Assembly: GCA_965229205.1 (NCBI GenBank)
Contig: CBDDIV010000003.1
Coordinates: 2,363,576-2,427,575, forward strand
Reading direction: 5' to 3'
DNA from: Rhodoglobus sp.
GTDB lineage: Bacteria > Actinomycetota > Actinomycetes > Actinomycetales > Microbacteriaceae
Length of the DNA stretch: 64,000 nt
In this document: piece after piece, positions 30,726-36,804 of the stretch
How the letters are laid out: each line of letters opens with the position of its first letter
Numbering within the stretch: position 1 is the first letter of the stretch
Notes under the pieces: generated by a model
Told to the model about the DNA's origin: nothing
Database searches by the model: none
Seen by the model: only the letters and a program-made list of their open reading frames with translations
Position numbers and translations under genes: made by a program

Positions 30726-32804
30726 TCAGACGTCGATGCGGTCGCGGTCGAGTCCGTGGCCCGCGATGATGAACTCCTTGCGGGGCGCGACATCGTTGCC
30801 CATGAGCAGCTCGAACACCTTCGCCGCCATCTCCGCGTCGCCGACGTTGACCCGCCTGAGGGTGCGGTGGGCGCGGTCCATCGTCGTCGTGGCGAGCTGG
30901 TCGGCATCCATCTCACCGAGACCCTTGTAGCGCTGGATCGGGTCCTGATACTTCTTGCCGCTCTTCTTGAGCCCGGCCAGCACCGCGTTCAACTCCGCCT
31001 CGGAGTAGGTGTAGATCGTCTCGTTCGGCTTCGAGCCCGGATTGAGAACGACCACCCGGTGCAGCGGCGGCACCGCGGCGTAGACCCGGCCATCCCGGAT
31101 CATCTCGGGCATGTACCGGAAGAACAGCGTCAGCAGCAGCGTGCGGATGTGTGCGCCATCGACATCGGCGTCGGCCATGATGATGACCTTGCCGTACCGG
31201 GCGGACTCGAGATCGAAGCTACGACCCGACCCGGCGCCGATGACCTGAATGATCGAGGCGCACTCGGCGTTGGAGAGCATGTCGCTGACCGAGGCCTTCT
31301 GCACGTTGAGGATCTTGCCGCGAATCGGCAGCAACGCCTGGTACTCACTGTCGCGCCCGAGCTTGGCGGTACCGAGGGCGGAGTCACCCTCGACGATGAA
31401 GAGCTCGCTGTTGGCGACGTCGTTCGAGCGGCAGTCCACGAGCTTCGCCGGCAGCGAGGAGCTCTCCAGCGCGTTCTTGCGCCGCTGGGTCTCCTTGTGG
31501 GCGCGCGCCGAGATGCGTGACTTCATCTCCGACACGATCTTGTCGAGCACGAGGGCACTCTGCGCCTTGTCGTCGCGCTTGGACGAGGCGTACTTCTCCG
31601 CCAGCTGCTTCGCGATGACGGATGACACGATCGAGCGCACAGCGGGCGTGCCGAGTATCTCCTTGGTCTGGCCTTCGAACTGGGGTTCTGGCAGCCGTAC
31701 CGTGAGCACCGCGGTCAGCCCGGCGAGCACGTCGTCCTTCTCCAGCTTGTCGGATCCCACCTTGAGTCGGCGCGCATTCTTCTCGACCTCGGCACGGAGG
31801 AACTTGAGCATCCCCTGCTCGAAACCGGCCTGATGCGTTCCGCCCTTCGGGGTGGCGATGATGTTCACGAAGCTCTTGAACACGGTGTCGTACCCGGTGC
31901 CCCACCGCAGTGCCACGTCGACCTGGCACTCGCGGGTGAGCTCGGTCGGGGTCATGTGCCCGTTGTCCTGAAGCACCGGCACGGTTTCGGTGAAGGTGCC
32001 GGACCCGAGCATGCGCCAGGTGTCGGTGATCGGCGCATCCGGAGCCAGGTGATCGACGAACTCGCCGATGCCGCCCTCGAAGTGGAAGGTCTCGCGTCGC
32101 GGCTCGGGCCCGCGCGAGTCGGTGAGGTCGAGGGTCAGCGATGGCACGAGGAAGGCCGTCTGGCGCAGGCGATCCAGGAGCTCATCGGTCTGGAACGTCG
32201 CCCCCTTGGTGAAGATCTGGCGGTCGGCCCAGTACCGGATGCGCGTGCCGGTGACGCCCTTGGCGACCTTGCCGACGAGCCGCAGCTCGCTGCCGGACAC
32301 GAACGGCGTGAACGTGGCGTCGGGCGTGGGCTCGCCGGAGTCGGCGAAGATGCCGGGCTCACCGCGGTGGAACGACATCGCCCAGGTCTTGCCGTCGCGG
32401 TCGACCTCGACGTCGAGCCGCTCCGAGAGCGCATTGACCACCGAAGCGCCGACGCCGTGCAGTCCACCGGATGCCGCGTACGATCCGCCGCCGAACTTGC
32501 CGCCGGCGTGGAGCTTGGTGAACACGACCTCGACGCCCGAGAGACCCGTCTTGGGCTCGATGTCGACGGGGATGCCGCGGGCAGTGTCGCGCACCTCGAC
32601 GCTCTCGTCGGGGTGCAGGATCACCGCGATCTCGGTACCGTGACCGCCCAGCGCCTCGTCGACAGAGTTGTCGATGATCTCCCAGAGGCAATGCATGAGG
32701 CCACGGGAGTCGGTGGAACCGATGTACATACCGGGACGCTTGCGAACTGCCTCGAGCCCCTCGAGCACGGACAGATGACGGGCCGAGTAGTCAGCGCTCG
32801 ACAT
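30726..32804 (-). CDS. parE: DNA topoisomerase IV subunit B (GyrB/ParE family)
   Basis: LEGLEAVRKRPGMYIGST, EIIDNSVDE, GLHGVG, VEGDSA, PIRGK, DADVDG and RYKGLGEM motifs. Confidence 0.93.
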   Translation of the reverse strand: MSSADYSARHLSVLEGLEAVRKRPGMYIGSTDSRGLMHCLWEIIDNSVDEALGGHGTEIAVILHPDESVEVRDTARGIPVDIEPKTGLSGVEVVFTKLHAGGKFGGGSYAASGGLHGVGASVVNALSERLDVEVDRDGKTWAMSFHRGEPGIFADSGEPTPDATFTPFVSGSELRLVGKVAKGVTGTRIRYWADRQIFTKGATFQTDELLDRLRQTAFLVPSLTLDLTDSRGPEPRRETFHFEGGIGEFVDHLAPDAPITDTWRMLGSGTFTETVPVLQDNGHMTPTELTRECQVDVALRWGTGYDTVFKSFVNIIATPKGGTHQAGFEQGMLKFLRAEVEKNARRLKVGSDKLEKDDVLAGLTAVLTVRLPEPQFEGQTKEILGTPAVRSIVSSVIAKQLAEKYASSKRDDKAQSALVLDKIVSEMKSRISARAHKETQRRKNALESSSLPAKLVDCRSNDVANSELFIVEGDSALGTAKLGRDSEYQALLPIRGKILNVQKASVSDMLSNAECASIIQVIGAGSGRSFDLESARYGKVIIMADADVDGAHIRTLLLTLFFRYMPEMIRDGRVYAAVPPLHRVVVLNPGSKPNETIYTYSEAELNAVLAGLKKSGKKYQDPIQRYKGLGEMDADQLATTTMDRAHRTLRRVNVGDAEMAAKVFELLMGNDVAPRKEFIIAGHGLDRDRIDV

Positions 32805-32979
32805 AGATGGATCTCCTTGGGTCGCCTTCAAGACTAGGGTCCTCGAGGCCACCGACCCTGTTGCCACACCACCGCTGTACGCGTTCAGCGAAATACCCGG
32901 CAAATGTCGCACCGCTGTAACAACCGCGTGCTTGTATTGAGTCACGGGAACTTCACCCGCCAGCCGTAAGGAGCAGGAC

Positions 32980-33210
32980 ATGTCTCAGATCGCCACCGAG
33001 AACACCGCCGTCGACGAACTGGACTACTCCCTCTCCGCGCTCGACCGTTGCGACAGCTGCGGAGCGCAGGCCTACATTCGAGTCACCCTCGCCAGCGGCG
33101 ACCTTCTCTTCTGCGCGCACCACGGCGCCAAGTTCAAGGAGAAGCTGTTCCCGACCGCACTCAACTGGCACGACGAGTCGGCGCGCCTGCTGGAGTCCGT
33201 CGCCGACTAG
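32980..33210 (+). CDS. Small conserved Zn-binding protein (DRCDxCGAQA...FCxHH)
   Basis: 76 aa with SD AAGGAG and CxxC plus CxHH motifs. Divergent from parE. Confidence 0.8.
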   Translation: MSQIATENTAVDELDYSLSALDRCDSCGAQAYIRVTLASGDLLFCAHHGAKFKEKLFPTALNWHDESARLLESVAD

Positions 33211-33228: not shown

Positions 33229-33957
33229 CTACTCGGCGGCCAGACCGAGCCGCACGGCGATCTGGTTTCGTGCTGCTTGGGCTGAGGCATCCACTCGTTC
33301 AGCTGTGGCGTCGTTCGCTTCGTAGCGACCATCCGTGATGAGGCCCAGCAGATAGTCCGCCAGGCCGGGATTCTTGGCGAGCACCGGGCCGTGCAGGTGG
33401 GTTCCGATGCTGGTGCCGACAACCTCACCCTCAAGTCGGGGCTCGGCGGCGAGTGAGTTGCCGACGCCGTAGACAACGGTGCCGAGCGCCCGCGCACCGG
33501 CGACAGCGCGGTACTCCCGGGCGTGGTTCTCGAATCCGATGAGGCGGCCGAAGTCGCTGTCGACGACGAGATCATCGCTGACCCGCGCGCGGGCCACCGA
33601 GCGACCGGAGAAGATGCCCAGCCCCTCAAGCACGTCGCCGTTCGACAGCTCGACTGACTGGGAGAGAAGCTCCCACCCGGTTCCCACGGCGAGCAGCGGG
33701 ATGCCGTCGGCACTCCATGCGCGCAGGCTCCCCTCCAGCGCACGAAGGCCCTCCAGTACCCGTGGCGCGCTCGACTCGGCACCGGACCCCACGATCACCG
33801 CCTGCGGCGCCTCGCCCTCAAGTGAGTCGCCGAGCGCGAGGTTGTGCACTCGAGCGTCCCAGCCCGCCCAGCGGGCACGCTGAGCCAGAACGAGCGCGTT
33901 CTGCGCGTCGCCGTTGAGGTCGAGGAGTTCGGGAAACACAGACAGGATGGTGATCAC
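33229..33957 (-). CDS. gatD: GatD-like type 1 glutamine amidotransferase domain lacking the catalytic Cys
   Basis: FPELLDLNGD..N, GFENH, GxGN and GTHLHGPVLAKNP signatures. The nucleophile elbow reads AVGTGWE instead of xxCGGYQ. Confidence 0.88.
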   Translation of the reverse strand: MITILSVFPELLDLNGDAQNALVLAQRARWAGWDARVHNLALGDSLEGEAPQAVIVGSGAESSAPRVLEGLRALEGSLRAWSADGIPLLAVGTGWELLSQSVELSNGDVLEGLGIFSGRSVARARVSDDLVVDSDFGRLIGFENHAREYRAVAGARALGTVVYGVGNSLAAEPRLEGEVVGTSIGTHLHGPVLAKNPGLADYLLGLITDGRYEANDATAERVDASAQAARNQIAVRLGLAAE

Positions 33958-33958
33958 A

Positions 33959-35203
33959 TCAGGCCAATCCGAGGTGGGTTCGCGTGCGGCGCATCGAATC
34001 CGCGCTGAAGATCACCGTCTTGATTCCGTGCTGTGGGGTTGGCAGCGCGAAGAAGGCGTCGATCGCCGTTGCCAGGTCCGGCTCCAGTGCACCCACCGCA
34101 ACGCCCTGGTACTCCAGCTGCAGGGCGAGCTCGTGAGCCTTGGAACCGGTCACCACGGTGACGGGCGGCATTGCGGAGAGGTCGACCGGCCAGAAGTACG
34201 ACGGGTCGCGCACGTCCGATCCGATCGCCATCAGCACCTGATCGAGCTCGGGGTCGAGCTCATCCACATTCAGTTGGAAGCTGGCGGGGTTCTGCACGAG
34301 AACGAACTCGACGGGCATCCCCCTGACCCTGGTGACCTCACCCCGGGCGAAGACCGGTTCGAGCGTCGAGATCGCATCGACAGCGATCGTGGCGTCGAAG
34401 TCCGGTCCGAGCACCTCGCTCGCTCCGCAGACGGCGGCGGCGGCATCCACCGCATAGTGGATGCCCCTGGCCGGCAGTTCCACGGCCATGCTGACGCCAT
34501 CCCAGTCGAGCGTTGCCGCGCGACCGTGGACGGCCGTGACCTCCACCGTTGCGCGCGGCCGACTCTGCACCTGCCGGGCATACCCGAGACCCCGCGGGGC
34601 GGCAGCGAGCACGTCAGGGGCTGCCCCGAATCCCACCGCCGCAACCTTCAGCCGGGCCGCCAATTCCGCCAGCAGTGCGTCGTCAGCGTTGTAGACGACA
34701 GTTCCGGTCGCCCGCTCGGCGATCCGCTCGAGGAGCTCGGCCACCTGCTCGGACTCGAAGAAGCGATCGATCTGGTCGGTCATGACATTGGTCAGGATCA
34801 CCGTTCGCGGGTCGAGGTCGCGGGCGACCAGCGCGCCGTGTCCCTCGTCCATCTCCAGCACGGCCATGCGATCGCTCAGGCGGCCCGTGACCGAGGCCTT
34901 CTCCAGCAGAGCCGATGTGAGGCCCTGGCTGATGTTCGCGGTCGAGGGGTTCGTGAAGACAGTCCGCCCGTGCGCGCGCAGAATCGCCACGATCATCTTC
35001 GTCGTCGTCGACTTACCGCTCGAGCCACTGACGATCACCAGTCCGTCGGGGAACGAGTTCAGCGCGTGCGGGAGAAAACCGGGCGCGATCCTGTTGACCA
35101 CCAGGCCGGGAATTGCCGAGCCACCATCTCGCTTACGCAGACGTGCAATGAAGCGTACGGCGCGTCCGACCAGAATCGCCGGCACGTAGCGCGTCGACGC
35201 CAT
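33959..35203 (-). CDS. murT: MurT-like Mur-ligase-family protein
   Basis: GGSAIPG, SGSSGKSTT, LEMDE, DQIDRF, NADD, RGE, QNPASF and DVRDPSYFWPVD (DUF1727-like C-terminus) motifs. Confidence 0.88.
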   Translation of the reverse strand: MASTRYVPAILVGRAVRFIARLRKRDGGSAIPGLVVNRIAPGFLPHALNSFPDGLVIVSGSSGKSTTTKMIVAILRAHGRTVFTNPSTANISQGLTSALLEKASVTGRLSDRMAVLEMDEGHGALVARDLDPRTVILTNVMTDQIDRFFESEQVAELLERIAERATGTVVYNADDALLAELAARLKVAAVGFGAAPDVLAAAPRGLGYARQVQSRPRATVEVTAVHGRAATLDWDGVSMAVELPARGIHYAVDAAAAVCGASEVLGPDFDATIAVDAISTLEPVFARGEVTRVRGMPVEFVLVQNPASFQLNVDELDPELDQVLMAIGSDVRDPSYFWPVDLSAMPPVTVVTGSKAHELALQLEYQGVAVGALEPDLATAIDAFFALPTPQHGIKTVIFSADSMRRTRTHLGLA

Positions 35204-36618
35204 TACTCGAGGTAGTCGCGCAGGGACTGCGAGCGTGACGGATGACGCAACTTGGCCATCGTCTTCGACTCGATCTGGCGGATGCGCTCCCGCGTCACAC
35301 CGAACGTGTCACCGATCTGGTCGAGAGTCTTGGGCATCCCGTCGCCGAGTCCGAAGCGCATCCGGATGACGCCCGCCTCGCGTTCCGACAGGGAGTCGAG
35401 GAGGCTCTCCAGCTGCTTCTGCAGCATGGTGAAACCGACGGCATCCGCCGGAACCACGGCCTCGGTGTCCTCGATGAGGTCGCCGAACTCGCTGTCGCCG
35501 TCCTCGCCGAGCGGTGTGTGCAGGGAGATCGGCTCGCGGCCGTACTTCTGCACCTCGATGACCTTCTCCGGAGTCATGTCGAGCTCGCGGCTCAACTCCT
35601 CGGGCGTGGGTTCGCGGCCGAGGTCCTGAAGCATCTGGCGCTGCACGCGCGCAAGCTTGTTGATGACCTCGACCATGTGCACGGGGATGCGGATGGTGCG
35701 GGCCTGGTCGGCCATGGCGCGAGTGATGGCCTGACGGATCCACCACGTTGCGTAAGTGGAGAACTTGAAGCCCTTGGTGTAGTCGAACTTCTCGACGGCA
35801 CGGATGAGACCGAGGTTGCCCTCCTGGATCAGGTCGAGGAACTGCATGCCGCGGCCGGTGTAGCGCTTCGCAAGCGAGACGACGAGGCGCAGGTTGGCGC
35901 CGAGCAGGTGGCTCTTCGCCCGCTGCCCGTCCTTGGCGACCCAGAGCAGTTCGCGTCCGAGTTGCGACTTCTGCTCGGCCGCTGACATGTGCGAGAGCTT
36001 GTCCTCGGCAAAGAGGCCCGCCTCGATGCGCATGGCGAGCTCGACCTCCTCGGCAGCATTGAGCAGTGCGACCTTGCCGATCTGCTTCAGGTAGTCCTTG
36101 ACGGGGTCTGCCGTAGCGCCGGTGATCGCCGACGAATAGACGGGGACCTCGTCCTCGTCGTCGACCAGCGACAGCACCAGGGCGCCGGTCGGCAGTTCCT
36201 CGTCCTTGCCCGTCGACTTCTCGTCGTCGTCATCGTCGTCGTCCTTGGCGTCATCCGAGTCCGCGTCGACATCTACCTCGACTTCGACCACGGCGACAAC
36301 GACATCGATCTCCTCGGGGTCGATCGCGTCGTCGTCAACATCGATCTCCACGACCTCATCGACGTCGTCATTGCCGTCTTCGGGGTCTGCGGGGGCCGTT
36401 GCCTTCGAGCCACGCTTGGTCGCCGGAGCCTTCACGGGGGCGGCCGATGCCCCCGCGGCCTTCGCCGCCTTCGTGGCAGCGGCCTTCTCAGCGCGGGTGA
36501 GCTCGGGTGCGTCGACGGCGGTGGACGCCTTCGCGGCGGAAGCCTTCGTGGGTGCGGCCTTCGCCGCAGGGGCCTTGACGCTCGCAGCTGCGGCGGGGGC
36601 CTTGGTTCGGGTTGCCAT
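35203..36618 (-). CDS. sigA: Principal RNA polymerase sigma factor SigA (RpoD/HrdB)
   Basis: [36 protein letters not shown] and [10 protein letters not shown] motifs, with an Ala/Lys-rich then acidic N-terminus. Confidence 0.97.
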
Positions 36619-36804
36619 GTTTCGAATGCCTTTCGATCGGGCAGCACTGTTTTTGGGCAGTACTAAGACCCATGTCAAGTCGTGATTCGTTGCGCTCGAC
36701 GAGCTTGAACATCCAGGGATGCCACGAATCCCGAAACTAGACCGGGTCTCGAATCAATTATTGCACGGTTTGATTGGACCAACCGCCAGAGTCCGGGAGG
36801 GCCT

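What the first reader, a model, noticed from the sequence alone, without database searches (positions are those of the whole stretch)
33229..35203. Cysteine-free GatD plus remodelled MurT: candidate ligase for the group B peptidoglycan bridge
Seen: the GatD nucleophile elbow is L-A-V-G92-T-G-W-E (GGA codon at 33684-33682) instead of C-G-G-Y-Q, and the 242-aa protein has no cysteine at all. The glutamine-pocket motifs are also changed (YGDxGN to NGDAQN; GGGxDxxQ to GSGAESSA), yet GFENH and HLHGPVLAKNP are kept and the frame is intact. MurT keeps the P-loop (GSSGKST), E-x-DE, DQxDRF and the catalytic D-x-x-D-x-S motif. Established: MurT/GatD phosphorylates the alpha-carboxyl of D-Glu2 in lipid II and amidates it with ammonia released from Gln by GatD's Cys. 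Microbacteriaceae have group B peptidoglycan, in which that same alpha-carboxyl carries an amino-acid bridge (diamino acid or Gly-containing). Inference: the complex is repurposed so that MurT activates D-Glu and the dead GatD binds or positions an amino-acid nucleophile, i.e. the bridge-forming enzyme. I am not aware of that enzyme having been assigned. Alternative: amidation with free NH3.
Basis: partly seen in the sequence, partly recalled or inferred. Interest (0 to 1): 0.88.

Follow-up and report, generated by a model that had tools for sequence, protein, structure and literature searches.

The report
Glutaminase-dead MurT/GatD cell-wall ligase pair
This bacterium, from the one actinobacterial family whose cell walls are cross-linked through D-glutamate, has a copy of the cell-wall amidating enzyme MurT/GatD whose glutamine-splitting half is dead while its ATP-ligase half is intact, which makes it a strong but untested candidate for the unassigned enzyme that attaches the cross-bridge amino acid.

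Summary
GatD* (33229-33957, minus strand) has no cysteine. Gly92 replaces the nucleophile and all glutaminase-specific residues are replaced, yet the fold is an intact GatD fold. MurT* (33959-35203) keeps every ligase motif.

- **Not decay.** The MurT partners of 96 Cys-less GatDs form one clade on the MurT tree.
- **Restricted to one family.** 107 of 124 Microbacteriaceae GatDs lack Cys. All 36 from ten sister families keep it, as do the 27 best non-family hits in a phylum-wide sample.
- **Fixed position.** The pair sits in a slot between rpoD and parE. Cys-containing pairs are never found there.
- **Replaced in place.** In 21 of 151 genomes the slot holds a CofE-like ligase plus an ATP-grasp ligase. 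These never co-occur with any MurT/GatD (p = 1.6e-19).
- **Linked to a racemase.** 36 Cys-less loci carry a two-gene alanine-racemase-family pair next to the ligase genes; none of about 53 Cys-containing loci does.

These results support an ATP-dependent ligase that adds an amine other than glutamine-derived ammonia to the peptidoglycan precursor, most likely the bridge amino acid on D-Glu.

Caveats: about 14% of family genomes have an empty slot. This genome lacks the racemase pair. There is no biochemistry. Free-ammonia amidation is not excluded.

The parts
33959..35203 (-). murT*: a MurT-like ATP-dependent Mur-family ligase of 414 aa. It has no Zn ribbon and its ligase motifs are intact.
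   Evidence: Pfam gives Mur_ligase_M plus MurT_C. The best PDB sequence hits are MurT of S. pneumoniae and S. aureus. The motifs were located. 35 columns are invariant in both Cys+ and Cys-less MurT sets, including G60, G63, K64, T66, E117, D119, E120, N139, D143, Q144, R147, D175, R287, E289, N305 and D333.
35006..35026 (-). P-loop GSSGKST (MurT* residues 60-66)
   Evidence: The Cys+ lineage has GTNGKT here. The switch to S61/S65 is class-specific: 100% T in Cys+ against 93-97% S in Cys-less.
34205..34207 (-). Codon of MurT* Asp333, the equivalent of S. aureus MurT D349 and S. pneumoniae D355. In canonical enzymes this Asp is the third member of the glutaminase triad.
   Evidence: The alignment to 6fqb_A pairs ADGIDTSW with SDVRDPSY. 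Asp333 is at least 95% conserved in both classes even though the triad is defunct in the Cys-less class.
33229..33957 (-). gatD*: a GatD-fold protein of 242 aa that has no cysteine and lacks every glutaminase-specific residue.
   Evidence: The AlphaFold2 model has pLDDT 96.8. The Foldseek top hits are GatD chains 6gs2_A, 5n9m, 9sq9 and 6fqb_E, with TM 0.79-0.86.
33682..33684 (-). GGA codon for Gly92, at the position of the nucleophile Cys94 of S. aureus GatD
33583..33585 (-). Codon of GatD* Arg125, the equivalent of S. aureus R128 (glutamine-sequestering Arg). It is retained.
   Evidence: Arg is kept in 103 of 107 Cys-less sequences and in 53 of 53 Cys+ sequences. The role of R128 is described in PMC5871853.
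33391..33393 (-). Codon of GatD* His189, the equivalent of catalytic H189. It is retained here but dispensable across the clade.
   Evidence: His is found in 68 of 107 Cys-less sequences; the others have Q, G, L, K or I.
35203..36678 (-). rpoD (principal sigma factor), directly upstream. Its stop codon overlaps the murT* start (TAATG).
   Evidence: A homologue of this ORF in locus L278 has Pfam Sigma70 regions 1.2 to 4. RpoD and ParE flank the pair in 55 of 61 wide Cys-less loci.
30726..32981 (-). parE/gyrB-type topoisomerase B subunit, the downstream border of the slot
   Evidence: A homologue in L278 has Pfam DNA_gyraseB, Toprim and HATPase_c. Synteny is shown.

Best explanation
MurT*/GatD* is a two-subunit ATP-dependent amide ligase derived from lipid II isoglutaminyl synthase.

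Proposed mechanism:
- MurT* still activates a carboxylate of the peptidoglycan precursor as an acyl phosphate. By homology this is the alpha-carboxyl of D-Glu at position 2.
- GatD* no longer makes ammonia from glutamine. It is kept as the obligatory structural partner, and possibly as the site that binds the amine.
- The nucleophile is therefore an externally supplied amine. The most likely candidate is the first residue of the group B interpeptide bridge: a D- or L-diamino acid, or glycine, depending on the lineage.

What is shown:
- All glutaminase residues are lost while the fold and the ligase motifs are intact.
- The Cys-less clade has a single origin and is confined to Microbacteriaceae.
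- The pair occupies a fixed slot coupled to rpoD.
- The slot is filled in other genomes by other amide ligases, and often carries a racemase pair.

What is inferred: the acceptor carboxylate, the identity of the amine, and any binding role for GatD*.
For: 1. Glutaminase residues. Y17, G60, D63, Q66, C94, Q98 and Y187 are 100% conserved in 53 Cys+ actinobacterial GatDs and replaced in all or nearly all of 107 Cys-less ones. D19, N22, R128, G141 and G190 are kept. The fold is unchanged.
2. Ligase machinery. It is conserved in MurT*. Ten class-specific switches include R142 to V/T in the FRDQLDR motif, N253 to D, R93 to Q and D329 to E/S.
3. Single origin. The MurT partners of 96 Cys-less GatDs form one clade with support 100. 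The pair is kept in a 0.93-Mb genome (G012) and in 1.2-1.7-Mb genomes.
4. Family restriction. See; p = 4e-23.
5. Non-redundancy. Three genomes carry both a Cys-less pair in the slot and a Cys+ pair elsewhere.
6. Replacement in place. 21 genomes have rpoD, then a CofE-like ligase (PF01996) and an ATP-grasp ligase (PF14397), then parE. These never co-occur with any MurT/GatD (p = 1.6e-19).
7. Racemase link. A tandem Alr-family racemase pair lies next to 36 Cys-less loci and to most CofE/ATP-grasp loci, but next to 0 of about 53 Cys+ loci (p = 4e-8).
8. Experimental precedent. S. aureus MurT with GatD-C94G loses glutamine use but still ligates free NH3, and MurT alone is inactive (PMC3266927).
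9. Chemistry. From established knowledge (Schleifer and Kandler classification), group B peptidoglycan needs an amine ligated to exactly the carboxyl that MurT activates. Microbacteriaceae genera are listed with B-type walls in PMC7033078.
Against: - About 21 of 151 family genomes have an empty rpoD-parE slot. Fourteen of these have only a Cys+ pair elsewhere (for example a Leucobacter and Aurantimicrobium). Another 7-8 have no MurT, CofE-like or ATP-grasp homologue at all, for example Klugiella and Humidisolicoccus. If these organisms also have group B walls, another enzyme must be able to build the bridge.
- The window's own genome has no racA/racB, CofE-like or ATP-grasp gene and only the housekeeping Alr. 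The D-amino-acid link is therefore indirect for this subtype.
- GatD* subtypes follow phylogeny. As far as I could map them from memory, they do not follow the bridge amino acid.
- Dead-GatD pairs also occur in Oscillospiraceae, which are not known for group B walls.
- There is no biochemical or genetic evidence. No paper on the topic was found, and absence from the searched library does not prove that none exists.
Confidence: 0.5

Rival explanations
1. Ammonia-dependent isoglutamine synthase. MurT*/GatD* still amidates D-Glu but uses free NH3 instead of glutamine, and GatD* is only a scaffold.
For: S. aureus MurT with GatD-C94G amidates lipid II with NH3 or NH4Cl at pH 8.5, and needs GatD to be present (PMC3266927). 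This is the smallest change from the ancestor. The window genome has no racemase or second ligase near the pair.
Against: - In group B walls the D-Glu alpha-carboxyl carries the bridge, so amidating it would block cross-linking (established knowledge).
- Three genomes keep a glutamine-dependent Cys+ pair as well as the Cys-less one.
- Adjacency to a racemase pair and replacement in place by CofE-like plus ATP-grasp ligases have no obvious meaning for an ammonia ligase.
- Former pocket residues are invariant within subtypes, for example N15, G16, D17, N20, G57, S58, G92, T93, G94, E96 and R125 across 55 type-1 sequences. That is more constraint than a scaffold needs.
- The S. aureus enzyme did not use NH3 at neutral pH.
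Confidence: 0.15
2. A ligase for a different step or acceptor. MurT*/GatD* adds an amino acid, possibly a D-amino acid, to another carboxylate. Candidates are the second bridge residue, the free carboxyl of the bridge diamino acid, the stem C-terminus, or a secondary wall polymer. The first bridge bond would then be made by an enzyme not yet identified.
For: - Genomes with an empty slot exist. If they are group B, some other enzyme can build the bridge.
- An ATP-grasp ligase accompanies the pair in at least 7 loci and always accompanies the CofE-like gene, which suggests two successive ligations in some lineages.
- MurT* shows class-specific switches near the substrate-facing motifs.
Against: - MurT homology points to the D-Glu alpha-carboxyl of lipid II.
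- The MurT_C region and Asp333 are conserved.
- Restriction of the Cys-less form to the group B family is most simply explained by the defining chemistry of that family.
Confidence: 0.2
3. A non-catalytic remnant. The pair is a pseudoenzyme complex with a regulatory or scaffolding role, or is drifting toward loss.
For: GatD* evolves faster than MurT*: 42-58% against 55-67% identity to the window proteins over the same genomes. The catalytic His is lost in 36% of Cys-less GatDs. The pair has been lost or replaced in about a quarter of family genomes.
Against: - ATP-binding and catalytic residues of MurT* are at least 95% conserved over 96 sequences.
- The clade is ancient, has a single origin, and is kept in the most reduced genomes.
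- The gene is translationally coupled to rpoD.
- Where the pair is absent from the slot, it is replaced by other ligases, not by nothing, in 21 genomes.
Confidence: 0.05

Closest known systems
Lipid II isoglutaminyl synthase MurT/GatD (EC 6.3.5.13) of S. aureus (6GS2, 6H5E), S. pneumoniae (6FQB), S. pyogenes (9SQ9) and M. tuberculosis
   Same: - Two adjacent genes in the order murT then gatD.
- A MurT central Mur-ligase domain with P-loop, Mg-binding Glu and DQxDR, plus a MurT_C domain carrying the interface Asp.
- A GatD fold including the extra C-terminal helix (TM 0.83-0.86).
- Arg128 equivalent retained.
   Different: - No nucleophile Cys.
- No Y17, no G60 oxyanion glycine and no Q98; His is dispensable across the clade.
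- Scores are one fifth to one tenth of the NCBIfam equivalog cut-offs.
- A different, fixed chromosomal slot.
- Ten class-specific substitutions in MurT.
- It therefore cannot be glutamine-hydrolysing.
S. aureus MurT with the GatD-C94G laboratory mutant (Munch et al. 2012, PMC3266927)
   Same: It has the same residue change as the window protein (Cys to Gly). It shows what such a complex can do: no glutamine use, an external amine (NH3) still ligated, and GatD still required.
   Different: The mutant is a single substitution in an otherwise canonical pocket. Here the whole pocket is remodelled and then conserved over a family-wide radiation.
The Cys-containing MurT/GatD lineage without a Zn ribbon (GatD elbow M-I/V-C-G-L/M-Y-Q-L-F), found in sister families of the order and in 17 Microbacteriaceae genomes
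   Same: It is the closest sequence relative of MurT*, at 315-364 bits to the MurT* profile. It also lacks the Zn ribbon.
   Different: It keeps the full glutaminase site. It is never in the rpoD-parE slot and never next to the racemase pair.
Other enzymes that add peptidoglycan branch or bridge residues: the ATP-grasp D-aspartate ligase Aslfm of Enterococcus faecium, and Fem/MurM aminoacyl-tRNA transferases (recalled from the literature, not tested here)
   Same: They add the first bridge residue to the precursor before transpeptidation. Aslfm shows that ATP-grasp ligases do such work, as the ATP-grasp that replaces the pair may also do.
   Different: Those enzymes acylate the side-chain amine of residue 3. 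Group B walls need activation of the D-Glu alpha-carboxyl, which is MurT-type chemistry.
Dead-GatD/MurT pairs of Oscillospiraceae and other gut Firmicutes
   Same: A MurT-like ligase is paired with a GatD that lacks both Cys and His.
   Different: It is a separate, distant lineage. The query P0240 is about 33% identical to the window GatD*. Among Microbacteriaceae types it most resembles the separate 'LFTHNALEVL' group, whose MurT keeps the Zn ribbon. No link to group B walls is known.

Membership tests
MurT/GatD lipid II isoglutaminyl synthase (glutamine-hydrolysing) | GatD nucleophile Cys in the G/T-x-C-x-G elbow | tested here: not met
   Gly92 occupies the position and the protein has 0 Cys. 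The position is G, A, S, N, T or H in 107 family sequences.
MurT/GatD lipid II isoglutaminyl synthase (glutamine-hydrolysing) | Catalytic His189 and the glutamine-handling residues Y17, G60/G95 (oxyanion hole) and R128 | tested here: not met
   His189 and Arg125 are present in the window protein. However Y17 is Asn, G60 is Ser and G95 is Thr. Across the clade His is kept in only 64% of sequences.
MurT/GatD lipid II isoglutaminyl synthase (glutamine-hydrolysing) | GatD fold: a class I amidotransferase fold with the extra C-terminal helix | tested here: met
   The AF2 model has pLDDT 96.8 and pTM 0.93. The top nine Foldseek hits are all GatD chains, with TM 0.79-0.86.
MurT/GatD lipid II isoglutaminyl synthase (glutamine-hydrolysing) | MurT: a Mur-ligase middle domain with P-loop and Mg-binding Glu, plus a MurT_C domain with the interface Asp (D349) | tested here: met
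   Mur_ligase_M scores 57 bits. MurT_C scores 23.6 to 26.5 bits, which is borderline. GSSGKST, E117 and D333 are present.
MurT/GatD lipid II isoglutaminyl synthase (glutamine-hydrolysing) | Score above the curated equivalog cut-off (NCBIfam NF052463/NF045636 and NF052464/NF045635) | tested here: not met
   95.7 against 450 for GatD and 81.5 against 800 for MurT.
MurT/GatD lipid II isoglutaminyl synthase (glutamine-hydrolysing) | Glutamine- and ATP-dependent amidation of the D-Glu alpha-carboxyl of lipid II | not testable with these tools
   This needs an enzyme assay. The sequence predicts that glutamine cannot be used.
Mur ligase superfamily (ATP-dependent, acyl-phosphate-forming amide ligases) | Central nucleotide-binding domain with P-loop, Mg-binding acidic residues and a conserved C-terminal-domain Arg/Glu | tested here: met
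   Pfam PF08245. There are hits to MurC, MurD, MurE, MurF and cyanophycin synthetase models. G60, K64, E117, D119, E120, N139, D143, R147, R287 and E289 are invariant.
Group B peptidoglycan bridge ligase (a proposed function, not a described family) | Present in organisms with group B walls and absent elsewhere | tested here: inconclusive
   Within Actinomycetota the Cys-less form is confined to Microbacteriaceae. Inside the family it is present in 108 of 151 genomes. 21 more have an alternative ligase module in the same slot, and about 21 have an empty slot. Firmicutes with group B walls could not be identified with these tools.
Group B peptidoglycan bridge ligase (a proposed function, not a described family) | Ligates the bridge amino acid to the D-Glu alpha-carboxyl | not testable with these tools
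   The only support is indirect: adjacency to a racemase pair in 36 loci, and replacement in place by other amide ligases.

The most novel reading that the evidence does not exclude
The rpoD-parE slot of Microbacteriaceae is the long-missing genetic locus for the group B peptidoglycan cross-bridge. It holds interchangeable carboxylate-activating ligase modules: either glutaminase-dead MurT*/GatD*, or a CofE-like ligase plus an ATP-grasp ligase. It often also holds a heterodimeric racemase, racA plus the lysine-less racB, that would supply the D-diamino acid. In this reading the window's pair ligates the bridge residue to the D-Glu alpha-carboxyl, and the former glutamine pocket of GatD* has been turned into the amino-acid site.
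Probability: 0.4. Interest if true: 0.9.

Novelty: new variant of a known kind. Interest (0 to 1): 0.8.

Why it matters
Group B peptidoglycan, cross-linked through the alpha-carboxyl of D-Glu, has been a taxonomic hallmark for over fifty years. I found no enzyme assigned to the bridge-forming step in the literature I could search.

- **A testable candidate.** This locus gives a concrete two-gene candidate, with an alternative module and a candidate racemase in relatives. An ordinary enzyme assay and muropeptide analysis can test it.
- **An example of enzyme evolution.** If confirmed, it would show an amidotransferase turned into an amino-acid ligase by killing its glutaminase subunit while keeping it as a partner.
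- **A genomic marker.** It would let wall chemotype be predicted from genomes.
- **A lineage-specific target.** The family includes several plant pathogens and Tropheryma whipplei.
- **Annotation.** Records that name these proteins 'lipid II isoglutaminyl synthase (glutamine-hydrolysing) subunit GatD' or 'cobyric acid synthase' are almost certainly wrong about the reaction.

Tried and rejected
- **Strain-specific decay: rejected.** All 120 closest homologues and 107 family sequences lack Cys, and the clade has a single origin.
- **A second functional GatD/MurT in this genome: rejected.** There is one MurT_C hit. The other three GATase_3 hits are PdxT, PurQ and HisH by their motifs.
- **Zn-ribbon loss as part of the remodelling: rejected.** The ribbon is also absent from the nearest Cys+ lineage.
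- **Naming distant Cys-less representatives by cluster look-up: failed.** All ten were unnamed metagenome proteins. Twenty genomes were later named through exact EF-Tu look-ups.
- **Testing group B Firmicutes: not possible.** Erysipelothrix, Acetobacterium and Eubacterium limosum could not be reached. The single genome-contig scan, using a low-GC dead GatD, returned only Oscillospiraceae MAGs, which say nothing about group B walls.
- **Mapping GatD* subtypes to bridge amino acids: not possible.** It could only be attempted from memory for a few genera and showed no one-to-one pattern. No claim is made.
- **An extra Mur ligase in genomes without MurT:** only the two Gulosibacter-genus genomes have extra MurE-like paralogues. 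The others have the usual five.
- **Literature searches:** searches for any link between MurT/GatD and group B walls found nothing.
- **Promoter and terminator scan of the locus:** nothing above the shuffled expectation.
- **dN/dS: not attempted.** The nearest genome with DNA in hand is only 59% identical at the protein level.
Full report
**1. What is in the window**

Two minus-strand ORFs abut each other. murT* is at 33959-35203 (414 aa). gatD* is at 33229-33957 (242 aa, GTG start one base after the murT* stop). The stop of the upstream principal sigma gene rpoD (35203-36678) overlaps the murT* ATG (TAATG). A parE/gyrB-type gene (30726-32981) follows downstream. No promoter- or terminator-like site above expectation lies between them.

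- Pfam assigns GATase_3 to GatD*, and Mur_ligase_M plus a borderline MurT_C to MurT*.
- The NCBIfam GatD and MurT equivalogs are the best models. They score only 95.7 against a cut-off of 450, and 81.5 against 800.
- The PDB alignment places Gly92 (GGA, 33684-33682) on Cys94 of S. aureus GatD.
- An AlphaFold2 model is very confident (pLDDT 96.8). Its nine best PDB matches are all GatD chains, with TM 0.79-0.86.
- The genome (3.09 Mb, 98.5% complete) has a single MurT_C hit. Its other three GATase_3 hits carry the motifs of PdxT, PurQ and HisH. There is therefore no second, functional pair.

**2. The dead glutaminase is a conserved state, not decay**

- All 120 closest database homologues, down to 50% identity, carry G-T-G-x-E or near variants. 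Their names place them in Rhodoglobus, Cryobacterium, Glaciihabitans, Luethyella and Galbitalea, that is, in Microbacteriaceae.
- In a search of 1.84 billion representatives, the 47 best hits all lack Cys. The first Cys-bearing one appears at E = 2e-30.
- I fetched the GatD homologues of 151 species genomes of the family (101 genera) and of ten sister families, and built a residue table.
  - In 53 Cys-bearing sequences, Y17, G60, G61, D63, Q66, C94, Q98, R128, E143, N144, H145, Y187 and H189 (S. aureus numbering) are invariant.
  - In 107 Cys-less sequences, Y17 is never Tyr and G60 is Gly in only 3. C94 is G (69), A (20), H (9), S (6), N (2) or T (1). Y187 is never Tyr, and H189 is kept in only 64%.
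  - D19, N22, G59, R128, G141 and G190-P191 are retained.
- The glutaminase was therefore dismantled as a whole while the fold, the MurT interface and one substrate-contacting Arg were kept.
- Within the window's own subtype, the remodelled pocket is itself invariant over 55 sequences: N15, G16, D17, N20, G57, S58, G92, T93, G94, E96 and R125.

**3. MurT* is an intact ligase with class-specific changes**

- Across 96 partners of Cys-less GatDs and 36 partners of the nearest Cys-bearing lineage, 35 columns are at least 95% identical in both. They include the P-loop, E117, D119, E120, N139, D143, Q144, R147, D175, R287, E289, N305 and D333, the equivalent of S. aureus D349.
- Ten columns are fixed differently in the two classes. 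Examples are R to V/T in FRDQLDR, N253 to D, R93 to Q, and D329 to E/S next to D333.
- The missing Zn ribbon is not one of these changes, because the nearest Cys-bearing lineage lacks it too.
- On a MurT tree the 96 Cys-less partners form one clade (support 100). A separate small group, with GatD reading LFTHNALEVL and MurT keeping the Zn ribbon, forms another. Two changes of state explain the whole distribution.

**4. Distribution**

- In the order, GatD homologues occur in eleven of 24 sampled families. All 36 examined outside Microbacteriaceae keep Cys and the full motif set.
- In a 401-genome sample of the phylum, I searched with a profile built only from Cys-less sequences. The 27 best non-family hits, from 17 families, all keep Cys.
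- Inside the family:

| State | Genomes (of 151) |
|---|---|
| Only a Cys-less pair | 105 |
| Both a Cys-less and a Cys+ pair | 3 |
| Only a Cys+ pair | 14 |
| No GatD at all | 29 |

- The pair is present in a 927,303-bp genome and in several genomes of 1.2-1.7 Mb.
- Twenty genomes were named by exact EF-Tu look-up.
  - Cys-less: Clavibacter nebraskensis, a Leifsonia/Diaminobutyricibacter, Plantibacter, Okibacterium, Mycetocola, Frondihabitans, Labedella, Cnuibacter, a Salinibacterium and Schumannella.
  - Cys+ only: a Leucobacter and Aurantimicrobium minutum.
  - No pair: Paramicrobacterium humi, Gulosibacter sediminis, Humidisolicoccus flavus, Klugiella xanthotipulae, a Humibacter and another Salinibacterium.

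**5. The slot**

- In 55 of 61 Cys-less loci with wide flanks the order is PAC2, MFS, rpoD, murT*, gatD*, parE, as in the window. No Cys-bearing pair, inside or outside the family, lies there.
- In Paramicrobacterium humi the same slot holds a 233-aa F420-ligase-family (CofE-like) protein and a 339-aa ATP-grasp protein, followed by two racemase genes.
- Family-wide searches find the CofE-like gene in 21 genomes, and none of them has any MurT/GatD (Fisher p = 1.6e-19). They find the ATP-grasp in 27 genomes.
- In 16 of the 17 ATP-grasp-bearing, pair-less genomes whose ATP-grasp locus was fetched, the module lies between rpoD and parE.
- The ATP-grasp also sits next to murT*/gatD* in at least 7 loci.
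- In the 14 Cys+-only genomes and in 7 of the 8 that have neither module, the slot region was fetched. In all 17 where both genes were on the stretch, rpoD lies directly beside parE.
- The slot thus has three states: the pair, another pair of amide ligases, or empty.

**6. The racemase pair**

- Directly after the ligase module, 36 Cys-less loci and most CofE/ATP-grasp loci carry two tandem alanine-racemase-family genes. They are on the same strand in some loci and convergent in others. Pfam confirms Ala_racemase_N and Ala_racemase_C.
- They are extra copies beside the housekeeping Alr.
- racA keeps the PLP lysine (K-x-D/N-A-Y-G-H-G) but lacks the SYGY motif. racB has R, S, T or G at the lysine position but keeps SYGY. 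This suggests a heterodimer with one composite active site.
- None of about 53 Cys-bearing loci has them (p = 4e-8).
- The window's genome has neither racA nor racB, and no CofE-like or ATP-grasp gene. The other genome sampled from the same GTDB genus has the Ala-type pair with the racemases.

**7. Interpretation**

- Published experiments show that GatD C94G or C94S abolishes glutamine-dependent amidation. MurT with GatD-C94G still ligates free NH3 at pH 8.5, and MurT alone is inactive (PMC3266927 and PMC6113224). R128 contacts the substrate glutamine (PMC5871853).
- A natural C94G complex with an intact ligase should therefore still activate its carboxylate and accept an external amine.
- The following all point to an amino-acid nucleophile and to the bridge-attaching step:
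  - restriction to the one family whose walls use the D-Glu alpha-carboxyl for the bridge;
  - the separate chromosomal slot;
  - coexistence with a canonical pair in three genomes;
  - interchange with other carboxylate-activating ligases;
  - the link to a dedicated racemase.
- I put this reading at 0.5. The rivals are free-ammonia amidation at 0.15, a different acceptor or step at 0.2, and a non-catalytic role at 0.05.
- The main counter-evidence is the empty-slot group and the absence of racemase genes in this genome.
- Whether GatD* binds the amine is an inference from the retained Arg125 and from pocket conservation within subtypes.

**8. Comparison with what is known, and novelty**

- By homology and architecture this is a member of the MurT/GatD superfamily.
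- It fails the defining tests of the glutamine-hydrolysing enzyme: no Cys, no oxyanion glycine, and scores below the equivalog cut-offs.
- It should not be annotated as EC 6.3.5.13.
- I found no paper linking MurT/GatD to group B walls in the searchable library.
- Earlier notes of this scan flag similar pairs in other genomes. Their racemase observation was re-derived here independently.
- I rate it a new variant of a known kind, with high interest because it makes an old open question directly testable.

Noticed in passing
Related loci, e.g. L066 3177-5110, L087 5584-7526, L278 6727-8396. Not present in the window.: A tandem pair of alanine-racemase-family genes follows the ligase module. racA keeps the PLP-binding Lys but lacks the SYGY motif. 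racB has R, S, T or G at the Lys position but keeps SYGY. This looks like an obligate heterodimeric racemase with one composite active site. The genes are extra copies beside the housekeeping Alr.
   Followed up: partly
L278 4861-6644 (Paramicrobacterium humi) and the same slot in loci L285-L300: A CofE-like protein (F420-0:gamma-glutamyl ligase family, PF01996) plus an ATP-grasp protein (PF14397) occupy the rpoD-parE slot in 21 Microbacteriaceae genomes. They are strictly exclusive with MurT/GatD. The CofE-like protein is unusually well conserved (56-83% identity in 20 of the 21 genomes).
   Followed up: partly
window 35201-35205: The stop codon of the principal sigma factor gene overlaps the murT* start codon (TAATG). 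The cell-wall ligase pair is therefore probably co-transcribed and translationally coupled with rpoD.
   Followed up: no
window about 32980-33210, plus strand: A small ORF of about 76 aa, convergent with gatD*, lies between gatD* and parE. It reads MSQIATENTAVDELDYSLSALDRCDSCGAQAY...FCAHHG, with a CxxC...CxHH pattern, so it may bind zinc. I read it from the sequence and did not check it with any tool.
   Followed up: no
L036-L044 (e.g. Schumannella soli, G143:C1:2776844-2779975): A second, independent dead-GatD lineage occurs in the same slot. Its GatD reads LFTHNALEVL, GYKSQF and SLLGP, with no Cys, no His and no GFENH. Its MurT keeps the CPxC...CPxC Zn ribbon. In 4 of 9 cases it has an adjacent ATP-grasp. 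It resembles the Oscillospiraceae type, which may mean horizontal transfer.
   Followed up: partly
G114:C1:910224-910841 (L280 6661-8340); G017 contigs C32 and C34: The two genomes of the Gulosibacter genus carry one or two extra full-length MurE-like Mur ligases outside the dcw cluster, while the dcw-cluster MurE is divergent. In G114 the extra copy lies next to an MFS transporter gene.
   Followed up: no
L198-L277 (genome-contig scan): A large family of dead-GatD proteins is present in Oscillibacter, Dysosmobacter and other Oscillospiraceae MAGs from gut and rumen. They have no Cys, and GFINK and LIGP replace GFENH and LHGP.
   Followed up: no
G000:C3:1703126-1703629 (own genome, outside the window): The Mur_ligase_M scan of this genome found only three hits in the dcw cluster, plus one isolated hit at 1.70 Mb. 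murD may lie away from the dcw cluster in this organism, or it may score poorly.
   Followed up: no
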